DNA of 32,619 nucleotides. Source: a virus. The notes under the pieces were generated by a model, which saw only the letters and a list, made by a program, of their open reading frames with translations, did not search any database and had not been told where the DNA came from. The DNA is taken from IMG/VR virus record IMGVR_UViG_3300020477_000009; one strand, given 5' to 3'. Both the position numbers and the translations under genes were made by a program. Positions 1 to 32,619 of this stretch are shown here, one piece after another (within the stretch, counting starts at the first letter, position 1; each line of letters opens with the position of its first letter).

Positions 1-77
1 GGTGAAAATCGTTTTTTATCTCCCCATAGTCAAACCAAAACTCCTGGTGTTATTCTCTTAGATGATGGAAGTATTTA
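1..77. repeat. Left copy of the 77-bp terminal overlap (identical to 32543-32619). It marks a circularly closed contig.
   Basis: Read directly: ggtgaaaatcgttttttatctccccatagtcaaaccaaaactcctggtgttattctcttagatgatggaagtattta is present at both ends of the window. Confidence 0.95.
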
Positions 78-22501: not shown

Positions 22502-22765
22502 ATGGATGATAAAGTTAGTTTTAATATTGAATTACCGAATGGTGATGGAATAAAAAAAATAAATTCAATGGAGTTAACAGATAAACAATACTCAGTTGCA
22601 ACACAACTACAGAAATTGCAAGAAAACGTACAACGTTTAGCAAATGCAGTTGCAGAGCTTAATATGAAACAAGATCATTTTCGTTTAAAGCAAAAAGAGT
22701 TGATAGATCTGTTAGAAGAAGATGGGACAGATAGCAGAAATAGACACAAGACTAAAAAGCCATGA
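22502..22765 (+). CDS. Hypothetical coiled-coil protein (87 aa), first gene of the envelope cassette
   Basis: AGGAGAG lies upstream of the ATG. Heptad-like QLQKLQENVQRLANAVAELNMKQDHFRLKQKELIDLL. Confidence 0.65.
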   Translation: MDDKVSFNIELPNGDGIKKINSMELTDKQYSVATQLQKLQENVQRLANAVAELNMKQDHFRLKQKELIDLLEEDGTDSRNRHKTKKP

Positions 22766-22916
22766 GGCTGAGTGCCAACAACGTTGGCGAGAAAATTATA
22801 GACGTTTGGAGTCTATAGAAACACAATTAACCACCCTTAATTCACAAATTAGAATATCCCTGGTGTTCCTGGTAGTCACCCTGGGTAGTTTTTTCTTTGT
22901 CTCGCTTGCTCTTTGA
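22722..22916 (+). CDS. Tail-anchored membrane protein (64 aa): coiled coil plus a single C-terminal TM helix
   Basis: IAEIDTRLKSHEAECQQRWRENYRRLESIETQLTTLNSQI followed by ISLVFLVVTLGSFFFVSLAL. It overlaps the previous ORF by 44 nt, and there is no alternative in-frame ATG. Confidence 0.55.
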   Translation: MGQIAEIDTRLKSHEAECQQRWRENYRRLESIETQLTTLNSQIRISLVFLVVTLGSFFFVSLAL

Positions 22917-23932
22917 TGATAAAGAAAAAATTATTATTATTAGCTTTGGGATTGGTATTTTTTAATTCAGCTTATAGTGAACAAACAGGAGATTGTACTG
23001 CTGGCACAGATAATTGTGAGCAAAACAGTCTAAATACCAGCAATAATACAACTACAAACAACACTAATAATAATATATCGAGTGGAGGGCTAACCAACCA
23101 GAATACAAATATTAATACCTCTAATAATACGTCTAATAGCACCTCTAATAGCACCTCTAATAGCACAACAAACAATACTTCCGTATCAACAAATAATAAT
23201 ATAAATCAAAATTCGTCTTCGGTTAACACAGTTGCCACTACTACAAGCGTGGCAACAAACAATTCTACAGTTAGTTCAACAACCACTTCTGACGTCACGC
23301 AGAATGTGAATAGTGTATCTACATCTAAAATAGAGAATCAAAGTTCATCAATAGCACAAAATACGAACATTAATCAAAGCACTAGTGAATCTAAGGTAGA
23401 GACAGAAAATAGGAATATTAATCAAACACAGGCAGAAAATAGGAATACGAATATTAATAAAAGCGATTCCACCCAAGTAATAAGGCAAGAAATAAAATCA
23501 AAAACACCAGTTGCTTCGGCAGTAGCCCCATCGGTTCTCTCGTATTCGCAAGACATTTGTATATCGGGAGTTTCGGGAGGATTTCAGAATCAGATTTTTG
23601 GTTTATCGGGTGGCGCAGGGGTAGTGGATGAAAACTGCGTTCTTTTGAAATTATCAAGAGCATTACATTCTCAAGGTATGAAAGTAGCTAGTATATCTAT
23701 ACTTTGCAGCCAAAAAGTAGTGTTTACTTCCATGATGCAAGCTGGCACTCCCTGTCCATATTTCGGCAAAGTAGGAGAGGAGGCCCGTAAGGCATGGGAA
23801 GAAAATAAGGAAGACAGACCAGATTATGAGGACTTAAAAGCAAATTATATTCGTAAATGTAAAGGAAAAAAGAACTCAAAGGGGATAAGAAAATCAAAGA
23901 GAACTTGTGCTAAAGAATTTCGCAATAGCTAG
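22916..23932 (+). CDS. Secreted Asn/Ser/Thr-rich protein with a Cys-containing C-terminal domain (338 aa from ATG 22916)
   Basis: TGATG overlap with the previous gene. Sec-type leader MIKKKLLLLALGLVFFNSAYS-EQ. About 190 aa of N/S/T low complexity. Then DICISGVSGGFQNQIFGLSGGAGVVDENCVLLKL...ILCSQ...GTPCPYFG. Confidence 0.75.
   Translation: MIKKKLLLLALGLVFFNSAYSEQTGDCTAGTDNCEQNSLNTSNNTTTNNTNNNISSGGLTNQNTNINTSNNTSNSTSNSTSNSTTNNTSVSTNNNINQNSSSVNTVATTTSVATNNSTVSSTTTSDVTQNVNSVSTSKIENQSSSIAQNTNINQSTSESKVETENRNINQTQAENRNTNINKSDSTQVIRQEIKSKTPVASAVAPSVLSYSQDICISGVSGGFQNQIFGLSGGAGVVDENCVLLKLSRALHSQGMKVASISILCSQKVVFTSMMQAGTPCPYFGKVGEEARKAWEENKEDRPDYEDLKANYIRKCKGKKNSKGIRKSKRTCAKEFRNS
23117..23164 (+). repeat. 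Four tandem 12-bp units (acctctaatagc; two perfect, two degenerate) encoding the TSNS repeats
   Basis: Read directly: 23117 acctctaataat, 23129 acgtctaatagc, 23141 acctctaatagc, 23153 acctctaatagc. Confidence 0.85.
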
Positions 23933-26066
23933 TCTTAGCTTTCTTTTTTGTAGTCTGTTGGGGGCTACTTATACTTATGAAGCCAATAAAAATCTATTTG
24001 ATTTAACGGGAGAATCAGGAACTACCAGCTTAAATTCTGGTGACGACAGCTTATCTTCTGCTTTTAATTTAGATTTTACTTTTGGTTTTTATGGAGAATC
24101 TTTTACTTCGGCTAGAATGGCCACGAATGGCTGTCTTCATTTTGGTTTGGGTACAGGAAGCATAAACTACAATAATTATTGTGGTGATTACACCCCAGAT
24201 CCACTTCCCCACACCACTTATACTTTATATCCCTTTTATACTGATTTAATAAGAGATAGTGATTCTAAAATGTTAGCTAAAAACTTCACAGATAAGGCAG
24301 TTTTTGGTTGGTATAACTTACGGGAATACAATCGTAGTGGTTCTGATAATAGTTTTGAGGTAGTTCTTTGGACTAATGATACTTATGAATTTAGATATGG
24401 AGAATTAGATATTATTAAGCATGATGTGTTAATTGGGGAACAGGGTAATTCTACAGAAAATTATACTTATGTTTATTTTGATGAATGTAGCACAGGAACT
24501 ACCAATTCGAGTAATTGCGTCAGTTATGATTGGAACTCAAGTAGTAATTCTTATAATACAGCACTAGAGGATGGAGGTTCTCTTGCCAATAACGAAGCGT
24601 GTTTAAATGATCCATTAAGCCATACTACTTGCCCCACTTATAACGATGCGCTGTTTGATTATGAGTGTGAAAGAGATTCCCAACATTCTCCGTCTTGCCC
24701 TGGATATAGCTTTCAAGATTCTGTAGCTTATTTTGATTCGTCAGATATTGATTATGGCTATGAAGAAGATTATTACTTAGAAGAATTATACTTAGCTGGT
24801 AGTTGTATGGACGATCCTTCTTATTGCTACGATGATCCTTATTATGGCATGGAATTTACCGATGCCGAATGGTACGAAATAGACTTAAATGAGTTTGGTC
24901 AAGAGCAAGTAGATGATTGGTACGGAACAGAAGTAGAATTTAATAACGAAGGGTACATGGAATGGGAATCTTCCCCGTTAGAGAGTTGGGAAGAGTTAGA
25001 TTATCAAATGGATTTATACGATAATTTTAATGAATTAAGTTATCATGGTGAACAACATATTGAAGTTTTTGGTGCAGAAGAACTAATAGATTTATATACT
25101 TTTGATACCATAATTAGAGAAGGATTAATTAATGAAGAAGAGAACTATACCGATATTGCAACGCTTGAAGAACTGGATGAATGGTTTGAAGAAGAAATGC
25201 AAGAACATTTTTCCGAAGAAGAAATGGTATCCCACGAAGAGGAATTTGAAGAAGATCCCCAGGAAGAACACCAAGAGGAGATATTCGAAGAAGAAGCCGT
25301 TGAAGAGATCTACGAAGAAATAGAAGAAAGAGTAGCCGAAGAAGAGATTGAAAGAGAAGAAGTAGAGGAAAAAAAGGGTGGAATTACCTCTCAGCAATTA
25401 AATGTGGTTGCTCAGACTATATTAGTTGCCAACAATAGTGTTAATAAAGGATCTTTTTCTAACACTTCTAACTTATCCTCGCAAAGTTCCGAGCAGTCCG
25501 ATAACACGAAGAAATCAACCAGTAGTAATATTAGTGGAATATCTACTAGTAGTTCTCCTAGTATTTCCGATCAAATACAAGCAGCCCAATTTCAAACTAA
25601 TACAGTTTTATCTATGAATGATACGGGGGCAGCAAGTGGCGTAAACAACCCATTAACCACCCTGCCTGGGGTAAGTACCAATTTGAGTGTTTCGGATGCT
25701 GGTGTGAAGGATATACAGGTTAAAATTGATGCTGCTGTATCTGGTACGAGTAATACTTCCGAAGCAGATACTATAGCTAATCAAATTATTGCTCAAAATA
25801 TAAAAGACCAACAAGAAGAACAACAATCCCTCCAAGAAGAAACGGGCAAATACGGGGATGAAACTTCTTTAATTGCTTATTTAGATTATGTGCCTGGTTT
25901 TGATGCTTACAGGAATGTTAGCATCCCTAAAGCCGATACCTGGTACGAATCAAAGACCATCTATGAAGATGTAAAAATAAAAGATAATGTTGAGGTTTTT
26001 TATTCTTTAGCATCAACAAGTTTCAATAAGTTGGATGAAATGCTAAAATCAGAACCCAGGTTATAA
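23907..26066 (+). CDS. Large secreted modular acidic protein (719 aa, GTG start)
   Basis: Modules in order: (1) hydrophobic leader LKNFAIASLSFLFCSLLGA; (2) an N-terminal domain with an NIDO-like pattern (FNLDFTFGFYGESFTSARMATNGCLHFG...LYPFYTDL...FGWYNLREY...NSFEVVLWTNDTYEFRYG); (3) a Cys/Tyr/Asp-rich part (CPTYNDA..C..D..HSPSCPGYS); (4) a Glu-rich block of about 80 aa (~nt 25135-25375); (5) a Ser-rich block (~25450-25570); (6) a C-terminal globular part. Confidence 0.75.
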   Translation: MLKNFAIASLSFLFCSLLGATYTYEANKNLFDLTGESGTTSLNSGDDSLSSAFNLDFTFGFYGESFTSARMATNGCLHFGLGTGSINYNNYCGDYTPDPLPHTTYTLYPFYTDLIRDSDSKMLAKNFTDKAVFGWYNLREYNRSGSDNSFEVVLWTNDTYEFRYGELDIIKHDVLIGEQGNSTENYTYVYFDECSTGTTNSSNCVSYDWNSSSNSYNTALEDGGSLANNEACLNDPLSHTTCPTYNDALFDYECERDSQHSPSCPGYSFQDSVAYFDSSDIDYGYEEDYYLEELYLAGSCMDDPSYCYDDPYYGMEFTDAEWYEIDLNEFGQEQVDDWYGTEVEFNNEGYMEWESSPLESWEELDYQMDLYDNFNELSYHGEQHIEVFGAEELIDLYTFDTIIREGLINEEENYTDIATLEELDEWFEEEMQEHFSEEEMVSHEEEFEEDPQEEHQEEIFEEEAVEEIYEEIEERVAEEEIEREEVEEKKGGITSQQLNVVAQTILVANNSVNKGSFSNTSNLSSQSSEQSDNTKKSTSSNISGISTSSSPSISDQIQAAQFQTNTVLSMNDTGAASGVNNPLTTLPGVSTNLSVSDAGVKDIQVKIDAAVSGTSNTSEADTIANQIIAQNIKDQQEEQQSLQEETGKYGDETSLIAYLDYVPGFDAYRNVSIPKADTWYESKTIYEDVKIKDNVEVFYSLASTSFNKLDEMLKSEPRL

Positions 26067-26068
26067 CT

Positions 26069-26434
26069 ATGGAATGGTTTGAAAACAAAACAACCCAAAT
26101 AATAGCTTTAGTGACTATCTTAGGAACTCTCGCTGGTTTTGGTTATCAAGCAAGTACTTATGTTAATAGACTGGAAAACCTGGAAAGCGCAATAAGTTCT
26201 GTTGGAGAAACAGAAAATGCTCAAAATATCATAGAAGAAAGATTTGCTGGTATAGAAACATCCGTAGATTATATTAATAAATCCATAGATGAAGGTATAG
26301 ATGTTTCGTTAAAATCTCATGCAGAGTCCATCAATTTATTAAGGTCCCAACTAGAGGGGTTATCCGTAGCAGTAAAAAATTTAGAGAAAGACGTTGAGAA
26401 ATTGGATAGTAATTCTAATCCATTGGCAAATTAA
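26069..26434 (+). CDS. N-terminally anchored coiled-coil membrane protein (121 aa); i-spanin-like topology
   Basis: TM segment IIALVTILGTLAGFGYQA near the N-terminus, followed by heptad-like sequence (NRLENLESAISS...LRSQLEGLSVAVKNLEKDVEKL). It lies immediately upstream of the holin. Confidence 0.65.
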   Translation: MEWFENKTTQIIALVTILGTLAGFGYQASTYVNRLENLESAISSVGETENAQNIIEERFAGIETSVDYINKSIDEGIDVSLKSHAESINLLRSQLEGLSVAVKNLEKDVEKLDSNSNPLAN

Positions 26435-26437
26435 TAT

Positions 26438-26914
26438 ATGAAGTTTAAATTGGTAAAAAATCTCGTTGGTAGTTTAGCACCCACCATAGGAAGTGCATTA
26501 GGTGGTCCGATTGGGGGAATGGCTGCTAATTTAGTGGCAGAGGTATTGGGGTGTGATCCCGAACCAAAAAAGATTGAACAGGCAATAAGTAATGCCACAC
26601 CAGAACAGCTTTTGCAATTAAAGAAAGCTGAGAAGGAATTTGAAGCAAAGATGAAAGAAATGGATGTTGATATATTTGCCCTGGAAACGGCAGACATTCA
26701 AGATGCTAGAAAAACTTTCTCAGGCGATTGGACGCCAAAACTTTTAGGTACTATCACTTTGTTTGGTTTTTTTGGTTATATATTTATGATTTCAATTTAT
26801 CCATTACCCGATGCAAGCGATGATATTGTTATGCTAATTATTGGTTCTCTAACTGGTATAGCAACAGCAGTTATTAGTTTTTATTTTGGATCTAGCCACA
26901 AAGACACAAAATAG
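26438..26914 (+). CDS. Holin of the 3-TM gene-transfer-agent type (158 aa)
   Basis: The N-terminal Gly-rich amphipathic part, LLQLKKAEKEFEAKMKEMDVDIFALETADIQDARK, and the following hydrophobic helices match my memory of the GTA_holin_3TM family layout. It is adjacent to the lysozyme gene. Confidence 0.7.
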   Translation: MKFKLVKNLVGSLAPTIGSALGGPIGGMAANLVAEVLGCDPEPKKIEQAISNATPEQLLQLKKAEKEFEAKMKEMDVDIFALETADIQDARKTFSGDWTPKLLGTITLFGFFGYIFMISIYPLPDASDDIVMLIIGSLTGIATAVISFYFGSSHKDTK

Positions 26915-27093: not shown

Positions 27094-27537
27094 ATGAAAG
27101 AGGATTTAAAGGATCATCTTATTAAATTTGAAGGTTTAGTAAATAAACCTTATGAATGTACGAGTGGAAAGCTGAGTATAGGGGTGGGGAGAAATTTAGA
27201 AGATAATGGAATTACTACCGATGAAGCACTATTTCTTCTTGATAACGACATAAACAACGTACTCACAGAATTAAAAGCGCAATTCGTTTGGTTTGAATCA
27301 GCACCCGAAAACGCTAAGCTAGTATTATCCGATATGTGTTTTAACCTTGGTTTGCCTACGCTTTTAGCATTTAAAAAAATGTTATTGGCATTTGCAGAAC
27401 AAGATTGGGACGAAGCAGCAAAGCAAATTTTAGATTCAAAATATGCCAAACAAGTTGGTAGAAGGGCAATCTATAATGCTTCGCTGATAGAAGCTATCAT
27501 GGATGATAAATGGGTGAACAAAAGCGAAAGAACATAG
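27094..27537 (+). CDS. Endolysin, T4-type (GH24) lysozyme (147 aa), with no signal or SAR sequence
   Basis: FEGLVNKPYECTSGKLSIGVGRNL fits the catalytic E-8aa-(D/C)-5aa-(T/S) triad of the GH24 lysozyme family. The N-terminus is hydrophilic. Confidence 0.85.
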   Translation: MKEDLKDHLIKFEGLVNKPYECTSGKLSIGVGRNLEDNGITTDEALFLLDNDINNVLTELKAQFVWFESAPENAKLVLSDMCFNLGLPTLLAFKKMLLAFAEQDWDEAAKQILDSKYAKQVGRRAIYNASLIEAIMDDKWVNKSERT

Positions 27538-27959
27538 AAAACCATAACTCTCGCCTGGGTGCTTTGGGTGAATCTTATGTGACTACTGTACTTTTAGAGT
27601 GGTGTGATTTTGTTCTTGTAGCCAACCACACTACACCTTACGATTTAATTTTAGATCACAACAATAGACTTTATAAAGTACAGGTCAAGACAGTTAATCA
27701 ATCAAAGACTAAGAGTGGATTACGTTATCGCTTTCATGCTATAAGACCACAAAGATCTGAACAATATTATAAGTCTAAAAGCGATATTTTTGCTCTAGTG
27801 TTTTATCCAGAAAAGACTTGTTTATTTAGACCGAATACGGGCAATCAACGTCATTATAGTTTTTCTAAAGCACCCACTAAAGAAGAAGAATTTGATTCCT
27901 TACAACAAACCTTACAAGAATTACACAATGCCCCTACATTAAAACCCATAGATGATTAA
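27510..27959 (+). CDS. Small PD-(D/E)XK nuclease (149 aa), of the type annotated as group I intron-associated / Hjc-like endonuclease
   Basis: GALGESYVTTVLLEWCDFVLVANHTTPYDLILDHNNRLYKVQVKT contains the E...D...(Q)xK arrangement. It overlaps the lysozyme gene by 28 nt. Confidence 0.6.
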   Translation: MGEQKRKNIENHNSRLGALGESYVTTVLLEWCDFVLVANHTTPYDLILDHNNRLYKVQVKTVNQSKTKSGLRYRFHAIRPQRSEQYYKSKSDIFALVFYPEKTCLFRPNTGNQRHYSFSKAPTKEEEFDSLQQTLQELHNAPTLKPIDD

Positions 27960-31840: not shown

Positions 31841-32619
31841 ATGGAGGGGATAAAAAAATCAGCACAAGTATATTCTGATTTAGGTTTACACTTAGTCGCA
31901 ATCAAGGAGGGTTCAAAAGGTCCTACTACTAAGAATTGGCACAATGAGGGTATTAATGTAAAAGAGTTGAATGAAAATCAAAACATTGGACTCATTCACA
32001 ACCTCTCTAGTACCTGCTCAATAGATATAGATAGTAGAGAAGACGCTATAAAAGTCTTTCAAAACTACTTGGGGTTAGATCCAGTAGAAATGAAAAGAGT
32101 CTATCCCTGTTGGCGTGGTAAAAAAGACGGCATTAAATTTCTATTCAAAATGCCGAATATAGACCATGTGGGGATAAAGAAATTAATTTACAAAGATAAC
32201 GAACAAGTTATTACTGTCTTTGAATTGAGAGGGAGTACAACGGGAACAGGAGTCCAAGACCTACTTCCCCCTAGCGTCCATCCCCAGGGCCATAGGTACG
32301 AATGGATTAATCCATTACCCTCTCAGTTCTCCGATATACCCGAATTACCCGAAAGATTAGTAGAATTGTGGAGTAATTGGGAGATTGAAGAACCAGGAAT
32401 GCTGAATTGTTTAGGGTATTTTAAGCCAGAGACTATTAAGCGACAATTAGAGCCAAACGTAGATTCAGAAGATATTATTACTCGTTTCAATGCTACCTAT
32501 AGCGTTGAAAATATTTTGTTAAAAAATGGCTATGAAAAGAGGGGTGAAAATCGTTTTTTATCTCCCCATAGTCAAACCAAAACTCCTGGTGTTATTCTCT
32601 TAGATGATGGAAGTATTTA
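31841..32619 (+). CDS. Replicase, N-terminal part: bifunctional primase-polymerase (Prim-Pol) domain. Open at the window end; continues at base 1.
   Basis: My translation shows no stop from ATG 31841 to 32619: MEGIKKSAQVYSDLGLHLVAIKEGSKGPTTKNW...CSIDIDSRED...VFELRGSTTGTGVQDLLPPSVHPQGHRYEW. The K.P...W, DxD and PPS.H..G..Y.W motifs are of the Prim-Pol type. Position 32543 is a codon start and equals base 1 of frame 1. Confidence 0.8.
   Translation, partial: MEGIKKSAQVYSDLGLHLVAIKEGSKGPTTKNWHNEGINVKELNENQNIGLIHNLSSTCSIDIDSREDAIKVFQNYLGLDPVEMKRVYPCWRGKKDGIKFLFKMPNIDHVGIKKLIYKDNEQVITVFELRGSTTGTGVQDLLPPSVHPQGHRYEWINPLPSQFSDIPELPERLVELWSNWEIEEPGMLNCLGYFKPETIKRQLEPNVDSEDIITRFNATYSVENILLKNGYEKRGENRFLSPHSQTKTPGVILLDDGSI
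32543..32619. repeat. Right copy of the 77-bp terminal overlap (identical to 1-77)
   Basis: Read directly; see the left copy. Confidence 0.95.

What the first reader, a model, noticed from the sequence alone, without database searches (positions are those of the whole stretch)
23907..26066. 719-aa exported mosaic protein: NIDO-like N-domain, Cys/Tyr/Asp-rich region, ~80-aa poly-Glu block, Ser-rich block, distinct C-terminal domain
Seen: the leader LKNFAIASLSFLFCSLLGA. Residues ~50-190 follow the pattern F.F.FYG..F.s..m.tNG.l.F ... l.PF..Dl ... v.W..l..y....n.FevvLw....y.F.Y. I associate this pattern with NIDO-type extracellular domains. Next come CPTY/CPGY-type Cys motifs. Then an extraordinarily acidic stretch (EEENYTDIATLEELDEWFEEEMQEHFSEEEMVSHEEEFEEDPQEEHQEEIFEEEAVEEIYEEIEERVAEEEIEREEVEEKK). 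Then a Ser-rich linker and a ~150-aa C-terminal part. Inference: this architecture is typical of extracellular adhesion or cation-binding proteins, not phage structural proteins. It is unusual cargo for a 32-kb phage.
Basis: partly seen in the sequence, partly recalled or inferred. Interest (0 to 1): 0.65.

Follow-up and report, generated by a model that had tools for sequence, protein, structure and literature searches.

The report
Exported NIDO-head protein in phage lysis cluster
The 719-aa gene is real and encodes an exported protein with a nidogen-like (NIDO) binding head. It is not odd cargo: it is the large subunit of an uncharacterised three-gene envelope module that hundreds of marine phages carry next to their lysis genes.

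Summary
The ORF (23907..26066, +) and every described feature are present. The architecture is conserved in about 1000 metagenomic homologues.

The NIDO call holds by transitive evidence:
- NIDO is the only Pfam family hit, but below threshold (16.4 vs 25 bits).
- The family profile matches bacterial surface-protein repeats that Pfam calls NIDO (hhalign 99.9%).
- It also matches the N-terminus of the Flavobacterium gliding adhesin RemA (E 1.6e-22).
- A confident AlphaFold model (pLDDT 86.8) is a beta-sandwich with no solved counterpart.

The "unusual or host-derived cargo" reading is not supported:
- No close relative was found in 185,579 bacterial species genomes, against at least 570 IMG/VR viral contigs.
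- The gene sits in a fixed cassette: the exported, Cys-rich 339-aa protein, then this protein, then a 121-aa membrane-anchored coiled-coil protein. Both partners flank it in 76 of 83 loci.
- In 63 of 86 loci the cassette lies within 3 kb of endolysin, holin-like or spanin genes.
- Partner homologues occur in cultured Pelagibacter and Roseobacter phages, all labelled hypothetical.
- Canonical spanins often co-occur, so this is not a spanin substitute.

Function is unknown. My best inference is a periplasm-spanning envelope complex that acts at or around lysis.

The parts
23907..26066 (+). Gene B: 719-aa exported mosaic protein (the finding)
   Evidence: ORF confirmed. 966 homologues at E<=0.01 share the same architecture.
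23907..23966 (+). Sec-type signal peptide, residues 1-20, with predicted cleavage after LGA
   Evidence: It is the only strongly hydrophobic segment. Its sequence varies between homologues but is always hydrophobic, and it ends just before the conserved YxYE. No SignalP was available.
23967..24479 (+). NIDO-like beta-sandwich head, residues 21-191
   Evidence: Pfam NIDO is the only family hit, at E 0.009, below its cut-off. hhalign to bacterial NIDO repeats gives 99.9%. The profile matches RemA residues 51-216 at E 1.6e-22. AlphaFold model: pLDDT 86.8, pTM 0.88.
24480..24716 (+). Cys-rich region, residues 192-270 (C194, C204, C232, C242, C254, C264; CPTY/CPGY motifs)
   Evidence: These cysteines are invariant in the family. 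The unit C.GYAAAY..QQC..D.LY...C is present in 1 to 4 copies in homologues.
24717..25121 (+). Tyr/Asp/Glu-rich segment, residues 271-405 (net charge -40)
   Evidence: Composition. Poorly conserved and variable in length.
25122..25373 (+). Poly-Glu block, residues 406-489 (50% D+E, net charge -39)
   Evidence: An acidic block is present in all full-length homologues.
25374..25442 (+). Conserved segment L.VVA.T...A..SV, residues 490-512
   Evidence: Aligned in 100% of full-length homologues.
25443..25706 (+). Ser/Thr/Asn-rich linker containing the SPSISDQ motif, residues 513-600
25707..26063 (+). Conserved C-terminal domain, residues 601-719 (ETG.Y...IAY.GYVPGF..Y...WY...IY...DN...F...QP.L)
   Evidence: Alignments A1 and A6. 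Distant family members end in ..SQY... An HMM of this domain hits Pelagibacter phage HTVC115P gp53 at E 1.1e-4 among 4765 ORFs.
22913..23932 (+). Gene A: 339-aa exported partner. It has a signal peptide, an N/T/S-rich spacer, a Cys-rich domain of about 100 aa (AGTPCP motif) and a basic tail. It overlaps gene B by 26 nt.
   Evidence: Immediately upstream of B in 76 of 83 loci. Matches phrog_20531. Homologues occur in cultured pelagiphages and roseophages.
26069..26434 (+). Gene C: 121-aa protein with an N-terminal transmembrane anchor, a coiled coil and a C-terminal NPLA motif. It starts 2 nt after the stop of B.
   Evidence: Adjacent to B in 76 of 83 loci. The transmembrane region and the NPL end are conserved.
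26438..26914 (+). Holin-like membrane protein, 158 aa (phrog_1544, two C-terminal transmembrane segments), 3 nt after gene C
   Evidence: Next to the cassette in 20 of 83 loci.
27094..27537 (+). Endolysin (Phage_lysozyme)
   Evidence: Pfam E 2.2e-9 and PHROG endolysin.

Best explanation
Gene B encodes the large, Sec-exported subunit of a three-protein envelope module made of A339, B719 and C121. Marine phages of several morphotypes carry this module inside or next to their lysis gene cluster.

Shown:
- B has a leader peptide and a NIDO-like beta-sandwich head related to repeats in bacterial surface adhesins such as RemA.
- B has conserved cysteines, which fits disulfide formation outside the cytoplasm.
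- B has a hyper-acidic and Ser-rich spacer of about 330 residues that varies in length, followed by a conserved C-terminal domain.
- B is translationally coupled to an exported Cys-rich partner (A) upstream. Downstream it is coupled to an inner-membrane-anchored coiled-coil protein (C), then to a holin-like gene, with an endolysin gene 180 nt further on.

Inferred:
- Late in infection, C (and A, in the relatives where A ends in a membrane anchor) sit in the inner membrane facing the periplasm.
- B docks to them through its conserved C-terminal domain.
- The long acidic spacer lets the NIDO head reach and bind a glycan or protein of the cell wall, outer membrane or cell surface.
- The complex therefore acts on the envelope at or around lysis, for example by controlling or assisting envelope breakdown or progeny release. 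It does not act as a virion part.

The exact role is not established.
For: Architecture and conservation:
- ORF and features.
- NIDO-like head.

Cassette A-B-C:
- A and C each flank B in 76 of 83 loci.
- In the window A and B overlap by 26 nt, B-C are 2 nt apart and C-holin-like are 3 nt apart.

Lysis-cluster context:
- In 63 of 86 loci an endolysin, holin-like, i-spanin or o-spanin gene lies within 3 kb, usually 0-1 kb.
- The same arrangement is seen in HTVC023P (gp45, gp46, gp48, then the M15 endolysin gp49), in CRP-810 and in a freshwater phage.

Envelope targeting of all three proteins:
- Signal peptides on A and B, and a transmembrane anchor on C.
- A-type proteins with a C-terminal transmembrane anchor.
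- Extended ORFs give signal peptides to the pelagiphage proteins in the B position.

Not a virion part:
- No structural-family hits.
- The cassette lies next to replication genes in T4-like contigs and upstream of the terminase in HTVC202P.
Against: - No experiment and no homology to any protein of known function outside the NIDO head.
- Export was inferred without SignalP.
- Physical interaction of A, B and C was inferred from synteny only; no multimer model could be run.
- The cassette is not always next to lysis genes (HTVC202P, HTVC115P and T4-like contigs).
- The region between tail-fibre and lysis genes is also a classic site for moron insertion, so adjacency alone does not prove a lysis role.
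- Canonical spanins often co-occur, so no missing lysis step is obviously filled.
- Homology between B and the proteins in the B position of cultured pelagiphages is weak (E 1e-4 in a small database; hhalign 22% for the T4-like type).
Confidence: 0.4

Rival explanations
1. Superinfection exclusion or receptor masking. The exported complex coats or blocks a surface receptor or the periplasmic route of DNA entry. This would keep out competing phages, or keep released progeny from adsorbing to debris of the lysed cell, as T5 Llp does for FhuA.
For: - All three proteins are envelope-targeted.
- The head domain differs between phage groups: NIDO-like here, weakly CBM_4_9-like in HTVC202P gp25, and labelled carbohydrate-binding in AP013540. 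This is what a receptor-specific binder would show.
- Late expression with the lysis genes would fit masking at the time of release.
- Pelagiphages are abundant, so co-infection is plausible; superinfection defence has already been proposed for the pelagiphage curli module (PMC9599517).
Against: - Known exclusion proteins are small and usually expressed early or from prophages.
- No hit in PADLOC.
- No domain is shared between the B head and the phage's own tail proteins.
- The need for two partners and an acidic spacer of about 330 residues is not explained.
Confidence: 0.2
2. One reading: a surface adhesin or aggregation factor carried as an accessory gene. It would make infected cells stick to particles or to sibling host cells ('sibling capture'), possibly with calcium bound by the acidic block.
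For: - The head is homologous to repeats in bacterial surface proteins that carry T9SS or other sorting tails, and to the adhesin RemA.
- The layout of signal peptide, head, low-complexity stalk and C-terminal domain resembles anchored adhesins.
- There is a precedent: curli (T8SS) modules in pelagiphages (PMC9599517).
Against: - No recognisable route across, or anchor in, the outer membrane: no beta-barrel, no lipobox, and no known sorting signal in Pfam or NCBIfam.
- The partner proteins are inner-membrane anchored.
- No close bacterial homologue exists.
- The cassette is embedded in lysis clusters rather than in accessory-gene islands.
Confidence: 0.15
3. Virion-associated protein: a tail fibre accessory, receptor-binding protein or capsid decoration whose hydrophobic N-terminus is not a signal peptide.
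For: In the window and several loci the cassette follows tail-fibre genes. Glycan-binding heads are typical of receptor-binding proteins.
Against: - No structural PHROG or Pfam hit.
- The conserved leader ends at a fixed point, and there are 8 invariant cysteines.
- The conserved end is C-terminal and the variable end N-terminal, the reverse of most fibres.
- The cassette lies away from structural genes in T4-like contigs and in HTVC202P.
- Both partners are membrane or exported proteins.
Confidence: 0.05
4. Outer-membrane destabiliser: the hyper-acidic block strips Mg2+ and Ca2+ from lipopolysaccharide, giving an EDTA-like effect that helps the last step of lysis.
For: Net charge is -114 with the acidic block conserved. 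The gene lies in a lysis cluster.
Against: - Seawater and the periplasm hold divalent cations at millimolar levels, far more than a protein could sequester.
- This does not explain the conserved NIDO head, the C-terminal domain or the partners.
- Spanins are already present in many carriers.
Confidence: 0.05

Closest known systems
NIDO (nidogen-like) domain, Pfam PF06119, as found in repeats of giant bacterial surface proteins and at the N-terminus of the Flavobacterium johnsoniae gliding adhesin RemA (PDB entry 8gl6, chain D)
   Same: - Same sequence signature: DD..S..L.F.F.FYG / S.NG.l.F / l.PFW.DL / W....Y / N.F.v.L...g.i.F.Y / tIG.
- hhalign gives 99.9% to the bacterial repeats, and the profile hits RemA residues 51-216 at E 1.6e-22.
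- The proteins are extracytoplasmic.
   Different: - The score against the Pfam model itself is below the gathering cut-off (16.4 vs 25 bits).
- There is a single copy at the N-terminus, fused to a Cys-repeat, acidic, Ser-rich and C-terminal-domain architecture that the bacterial proteins lack.
- There is no T9SS or other sorting tail.
- The gene is phage-encoded.
- The function of NIDO is itself unknown.
Two-component spanins (Rz/Rz1 type; T4-type, PF26831)
   Same: - Encoded in the lysis cluster.
- Gene C has the i-spanin topology: an N-terminal membrane anchor followed by a periplasmic coiled coil.
- The module plausibly spans the periplasm.
   Different: - No lipoprotein partner is present.
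- B is about 10 times larger than an o-spanin and has a globular binding head.
- Canonical i-spanin and o-spanin pairs lie right next to the cassette in many loci, so it is not their substitute.
Curli (type VIII secretion) modules of pelagiphages (PMC9599517; PMC7029224)
   Same: - A multigene, Sec-dependent envelope module.
- Carried by unrelated pelagiphage lineages (podoviruses and myoviruses) and absent from the host genomes.
- Suggested roles are aggregation or superinfection defence.
   Different: - No Csg family hit for A, B or C.
- A different number of genes.
- The module here is embedded in lysis clusters.
Envelope morons and exclusion lipoproteins of coliphages (lambda Bor/Lom, T5 Llp, phi80 Cor)
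   Same: Phage-encoded proteins that are exported to the host envelope and often lie beside tail-fibre or lysis genes.
   Different: - Those are single small lipoproteins or beta-barrels, often with bacterial homologues.
- This is a conserved three-gene set with an 80-kDa acidic subunit and no close cellular homologue.
TonB-like periplasm-spanning linkers
   Same: A long charged low-complexity spacer joins a membrane-proximal end to a distal binding domain. One B-position protein was even labelled 'tonB' in GenBank.
   Different: No TonB C-terminal domain or ExbBD partners were detected by Pfam. B itself has no membrane anchor.

Membership tests
NIDO domain (Pfam PF06119) | Score against the Pfam model at or above the gathering cut-off (25 bits) | tested here: not met
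   With the N-domain scanned alone, NIDO was the only family reported: E 0.0091, 16.4 bits. 9 of 15 family members hit NIDO, best E 0.0011. The full-length scan gave no hit.
NIDO domain (Pfam PF06119) | Profile-level homology to domains that Pfam does call NIDO | tested here: met
   The family profile finds multi-copy repeats in giant bacterial proteins at whole-protein E 1e-19 to 1e-57, and Pfam calls NIDO in these proteins. Of 10 such repeat segments, 8 hit NIDO only, 4 of them above the cut-off. hhalign of the phage profile against the repeat profile gives 99.9%, E 1e-32, over 148 columns.
NIDO domain (Pfam PF06119) | Same three-dimensional fold as a solved NIDO domain | not testable with these tools
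   The confident model (pLDDT 86.8) is a beta-sandwich. Foldseek found no PDB match (best E 0.2). RemA is in the PDB by sequence (8gl6_D), but no chain matched the model by fold.
Sec-exported protein | N-terminal n-h-c signal peptide with a small residue at position -1, and a mature part that starts at a conserved position | tested here: met
   The leader has K3, a 15-residue hydrophobic core and LGA before TYTYE. Homologues end in LSA, FSFA, LSS or VSS before YIYE. No SignalP was available and cleavage was not tested.
Spanin (i-, o- or unimolecular) | A lipobox lipoprotein and/or a membrane anchor, small size, and being the only outer-membrane-disruption candidate of the phage | tested here: not met
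   B has no lipobox and no transmembrane segment after the leader. The window has no lipoprotein ORF. Canonical i/o-spanin pairs sit beside the cassette in many loci.
Tail fibre / receptor-binding protein | Homology to structural families, or a fixed place in the tail module | tested here: not met
   No PHROG or Pfam structural hit. The cassette lies outside tail modules in T4-like contigs and in HTVC202P.
Host-derived moron | Close cellular homologues and/or deviant composition | tested here: not met
   No relative was confirmed in 185,579 species genomes; the scan used strict family motifs, so only close relatives would be seen. G+C is 0.36 against about 0.37 for the genome.
Pelagiphage curli / T8SS module | CsgG, CsgF and CsgA/B domains | tested here: not met
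   No Csg family was reported for A, B, C or their pelagiphage counterparts.

The most novel reading that the evidence does not exclude
The A-B-C cassette may be a new functional class of lysis-cluster genes. It would be an exported tripartite complex, anchored in the inner membrane and spanning the periplasm, with an interchangeable glycan-binding head (NIDO-like here, other heads in cultured pelagiphages). Phages of SAR11 and other marine oligotrophs would use it to time lysis, to complete lysis, or to protect released progeny. This step has no counterpart in the holin-endolysin-spanin scheme.
Probability: 0.25. Interest if true: 0.8.

Novelty: new variant of a known kind. Interest (0 to 1): 0.6.

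Why it matters
Phages of SAR11 and other streamlined marine bacteria are among the most abundant viruses on Earth. Most of their genes are unannotated, and how they lyse their hosts is barely studied.

This work links a very common orphan protein family to three things:
- a defined domain (NIDO-like);
- two fixed partner genes;
- a genomic setting, the lysis cluster.

It also shows that relatives of the partners exist in cultured Pelagibacter and Roseobacter phages. That turns an anonymous ORF into a testable three-gene module. It also gives the NIDO domain, whose function is unknown even in animals, a compact microbial model.

Tried and rejected
- **Full-length Pfam, PHROG, NCBIfam and PADLOC scans of B** gave nothing meaningful.
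- **tblastn of B against 50,697 GenBank phages** gave no match. Megablast of the first 25 kb of the window also gave none.
- **Full-length AlphaFold model from 32 close homologues** was poor (pLDDT 51.6) and its Foldseek hits were meaningless. Only the N-domain, modelled with a deeper alignment, gave a usable model. That model has no PDB neighbour.
- **Profiles of the A domain and of the B C-terminal domain against PDB sequences** gave no hit. Pfam on the A domain gave only noise.
- **Spanin-substitute idea:** rejected, because canonical spanins sit beside the cassette in many loci.
- **Shared head with the phage's own tail proteins:** none found.
- **GenBank labels on relatives were not reproduced by Pfam**:
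  - 'OmpA family' for CRP-810 gp53;
  - 'tonB' in MW202481;
  - 'DUF2730' in AP013540.
- **The DUF2730 / Mu gp25 'releasin' idea for gene C** therefore stays an untested lead from memory.
- **Homology of the T4-like 276-aa neighbour to B** could not be shown (hhalign 22%).
- **The third homologue search, with the C-terminal domain profile,** returned only 28 short fragments and was uninformative.
- **Promoter and terminator scans** were at chance level.
Full report
**1. The observation**

The ORF 23907..26066 (+) exists, starts with GTG and encodes 719 aa. An AAAGAG stretch lies 5-11 nt upstream of the start.

- **Leader.** MLKNFAIASLSFLFCSLLGA is the only strongly hydrophobic segment of the protein.
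- **Conserved N-domain pattern.** F.F.FYG / NG.L.F / PF.TDL / GWY..EY / FEV.LW...F.YG.
- **Cysteine motifs.** CPTY and CPGY.
- **Acidic block.** The quoted string is verbatim. Residues 406-489 are 50% D+E with net charge -39.
- **Ser-rich linker.** Residues 513-600 are 49% S+T+N.
- **C-terminal part.** Residues 601-719 are distinct and conserved.

The mature protein is about 79 kDa, with pI 4.05 and net charge -114.

The architecture is not a chance ORF. A search with residues 1-407 found 966 proteins at E<=0.01, all from marine metagenomes. All full-length ones repeat the same order of segments. Mean identity to the window protein, by segment:

| Segment | Identity |
|---|---|
| N-domain | 76% |
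| Cys region | 53% |
| C-terminal domain | 45% |
| Leader | 35% |
| Tyr/Asp-rich, poly-Glu and Ser-rich spacers | 27-41%, variable in length |

The leader differs in sequence between homologues but is always hydrophobic. It always ends with a small residue directly before the invariant Y-x-Y-E. Eight of the ten mature cysteines sit in invariant columns. Both points are what an exported, disulfide-bonded protein would show. SignalP was not available.

**2. The N-domain is NIDO-like**

- The full-length Pfam scan gave no NIDO hit.
- Scanned alone, the N-domain hit NIDO (PF06119) and nothing else, but below the curated cut-off: E 0.0091, 16.4 vs 25 bits. Nine of 15 family members hit it.
- A profile of the N-domain searched against 1.84 billion representative proteins found 2720 hits at E<=0.001.
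- Beyond the phage family, these hits are giant bacterial proteins of 1000-4600 aa with 2-12 copies of the domain.
- Pfam calls NIDO in those proteins. It appears together with subtilase, Ig-like, T9SS Por_Secre_tail or IPTL-CTERM domains, so they are secreted or surface proteins.
- Of ten such repeat segments, eight hit NIDO only, and four of those exceed the cut-off.
- hhalign of the phage profile against the repeat profile gives 99.9%, E 1e-32.
- Against all PDB sequences, the combined profile hits one protein: RemA, the gliding-motility adhesin of Flavobacterium johnsoniae, residues 51-216, E 1.6e-22.

With this deeper alignment AlphaFold gave a confident beta-sandwich (pLDDT 86.8, pTM 0.88). 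Foldseek found no solved structure like it (best E 0.2). It did find several uncharacterised phage proteins in BFVD, the best at E 2.8e-11 with TM 0.68.

I therefore file the domain as NIDO-like: a member of the NIDO superfamily by transitive homology that does not pass the Pfam model itself.

**3. Not a lone or host-derived gene**

- A scan of one genome for each of 185,579 bacterial and archaeal species, using the family's most conserved motifs, confirmed no relative.
- G+C of the gene equals that of the genome.

In the 83 loci held at that point (L001-L083), the 339-aa upstream gene (A) has a homologue directly upstream in 76. The 121-aa downstream gene (C) has a homologue directly adjacent in 76. 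In the podovirus contigs C is inverted but still adjacent. The other genes of these loci are mostly unrelated to those of the window: the major capsid protein matches in only 2 loci. The carriers include a siphovirus (the window: tape measure, Dit and J-like proteins), podoviruses with family-A DNA polymerase and others.

- **Gene A** has a signal peptide, an N/T/S-rich spacer of very variable length, and a domain of about 100 aa with four invariant cysteines and an AGTPCP motif.
- **Gene C** has a conserved N-terminal membrane anchor, a coiled coil and a C-terminal NPL motif.
- **Spacing in the window.** A overlaps B by 26 nt. C starts 2 nt after B. A holin-like membrane protein (phrog_1544) starts 3 nt after C. 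A 36-aa membrane peptide and the endolysin follow.

**4. Relatives in cultured phages**

B itself has no tblastn match in GenBank phages. The A domain does have matches:

- Pelagibacter phages HTVC115P, HTVC202P, HTVC023P, HTVC033P, Mosig and Baldr;
- Roseobacter phages CRP-207 and CRP-810;
- Ralstonia jumbo phages;
- two freshwater phages.

In the pelagiphages examined (HTVC115P, HTVC202P, HTVC023P) and in the uncultured phage AP013540, the next gene encodes a protein of 430-505 aa. It has a different beta-rich head (weakly CBM_4_9-like in HTVC202P), a Glu/Pro/Lys-rich acidic spacer and a C-terminal end like that of distant B-family members (..MQYR). The next gene but one (in HTVC023P after a 51-aa ORF, gp47) encodes a membrane-anchored coiled-coil protein ending NPLG, NPLAQ or NPLR.

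An HMM of the B C-terminal domain hits HTVC115P gp53 at E 1.1e-4 among 4765 ORFs. This is weak but consistent with the synteny. The GenBank starts of HTVC115P gp53 and HTVC202P gp25 appear to be too far downstream, because the extended ORFs begin with signal peptides. All of these genes are annotated as hypothetical. The paper describing these phages says nothing about them.

**5. Genomic setting**

I searched the 86 B-carrying loci held by then with endolysins, two holin-like proteins, an i-spanin and two o-spanin lipoproteins taken from these loci. In 63 of the 86, at least one such gene lies within 3 kb of the cassette, usually within 0-1 kb. A common order is A-B-C, i-spanin, o-spanin, lysozyme. 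The same setting is seen elsewhere:

- In HTVC023P, gp45, gp46 and gp48 are followed by the M15 endolysin gp49.
- In CRP-810 and in a freshwater phage, the cassette also lies next to a lysozyme gene.

Canonical spanin pairs are frequently present, for example in L086 with a PF26831 lipoprotein. The cassette is therefore not a spanin substitute.

The association is not universal. In HTVC202P the cassette lies before the terminase. In T4-like contigs a shorter version lies among replication genes.

**6. Interpretation**

- **Shown:** an exported mosaic protein with a NIDO-like head; a fixed three-gene cassette of envelope-targeted proteins; a setting in the lysis cluster; restriction to phages.
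- **Inferred:** C sits in the inner membrane, as does A in the relatives where A ends in a membrane anchor. B docks to them through its conserved C-terminal domain. The long acidic and Ser-rich spacer lets the head reach a ligand in the cell wall, outer membrane or cell surface. The complex acts at or around lysis.

I give this 0.4. The rivals are:

| Rival | Confidence |
|---|---|
| Receptor masking or superinfection exclusion | 0.2 |
| Virion component | 0.05 |
| Cation-stripping destabiliser of the outer membrane | 0.05 |

Nothing computed here decides between a role in lysis itself and a role at release.

**7. Comparison with known systems and novelty**

The head belongs to a known domain superfamily whose function is unknown. 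The whole protein and its cassette match no described system. They are not spanins (no lipoprotein, and spanins co-occur). They are not Csg or curli proteins (no family hit). They are not Bor, Lom or Llp-type morons (three genes, no cellular homologue). They have no PADLOC hit.

I rate it a new variant of a known kind: phage-encoded exported envelope proteins that carry a NIDO-like domain. I give 0.25 to the reading that the cassette is a new functional class of lysis-cluster genes.

Interest is 0.6. The family is very common in ocean viruses and is now testable in cultured pelagiphages and roseophages, but the function remains inferred.

Noticed in passing
window 1..77 and 32543..32619: The first 77 bases are repeated exactly at the end of the window. 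The window is therefore a complete, circularly closed or terminally redundant phage genome of 32,542 unique bases. Its major capsid protein is closest (46.8%) to that of the 32.6-kb Roseobacter phage CRP-811.
   Followed up: partly
L170 6470..7987 (HTVC115P gp53) and L171 6457..7785 (HTVC202P gp25): The GenBank start codons of these two pelagiphage genes appear to be too far downstream. The ORFs extend upstream to ATG codons that add typical signal peptides.
   Followed up: yes
L086 10001..12446: In this 59.8-kb contig the B homologue is split into a 677-aa gene and a 141-aa gene. The second carries the C-terminal domain. The cause is a frameshift, either real or an assembly error.
   Followed up: no
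window 22722..22916; L084 12629..12838; L070 5894..6160: A 64-69-aa tail-anchored protein family (motif SHEA.C..RW.EN.RRL, C-terminal transmembrane segment) recurs close to the cassette, on either side of it, in different phages. It has no family assignment.
   Followed up: no
L022 3211..3477; L048 32..250; L070 348..614; L086 8070..8279: A small lipoprotein family of 69-88 aa (MKNLISISLLGLVLTGCSTIES...) lies near the cassette in several loci. It is distinct from the o-spanin-like lipoproteins.
   Followed up: no
L087 8001..10268 and most of L090-L169: In T4-like marine phage contigs of up to 197 kb, a short A-type gene (about 190 aa, with a C-terminal membrane anchor) is followed by a block of three more conserved proteins of about 290, 165 and 125 aa; the last two have signal peptides. 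All are unannotated. The block was found in at least 48 distinct loci.
   Followed up: partly
homologues P0015, P0018, P0020, P0024: The database lists a precomputed Pfam accession, PF27836, for a few B homologues. The local Pfam copy did not report it, so a very recent Pfam family may already cover part of this protein.
   Followed up: partly
L172 3833..4588 (CRP-810 gp53); L173 4272..5378; L211 5231..5455: The GenBank product names on cassette relatives are 'OmpA family protein', 'transport protein tonB' and 'DUF2730'. Pfam scans did not reproduce any of them at E<=0.05 to 10.
   Followed up: yes
L207 5704..7256 (Polynucleobacter kasalickyi VK13 chromosome): A distant A-like protein (262 aa) is followed by a 250-aa protein with a signal peptide. 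The pair sits among metabolic genes of a cultured freshwater bacterium, not in an obvious prophage.
   Followed up: no
window 27510..27959: A 149-aa ORF overlaps the end of the endolysin gene by 28 nt. It has no hit in Pfam, NCBIfam or PADLOC.
   Followed up: no
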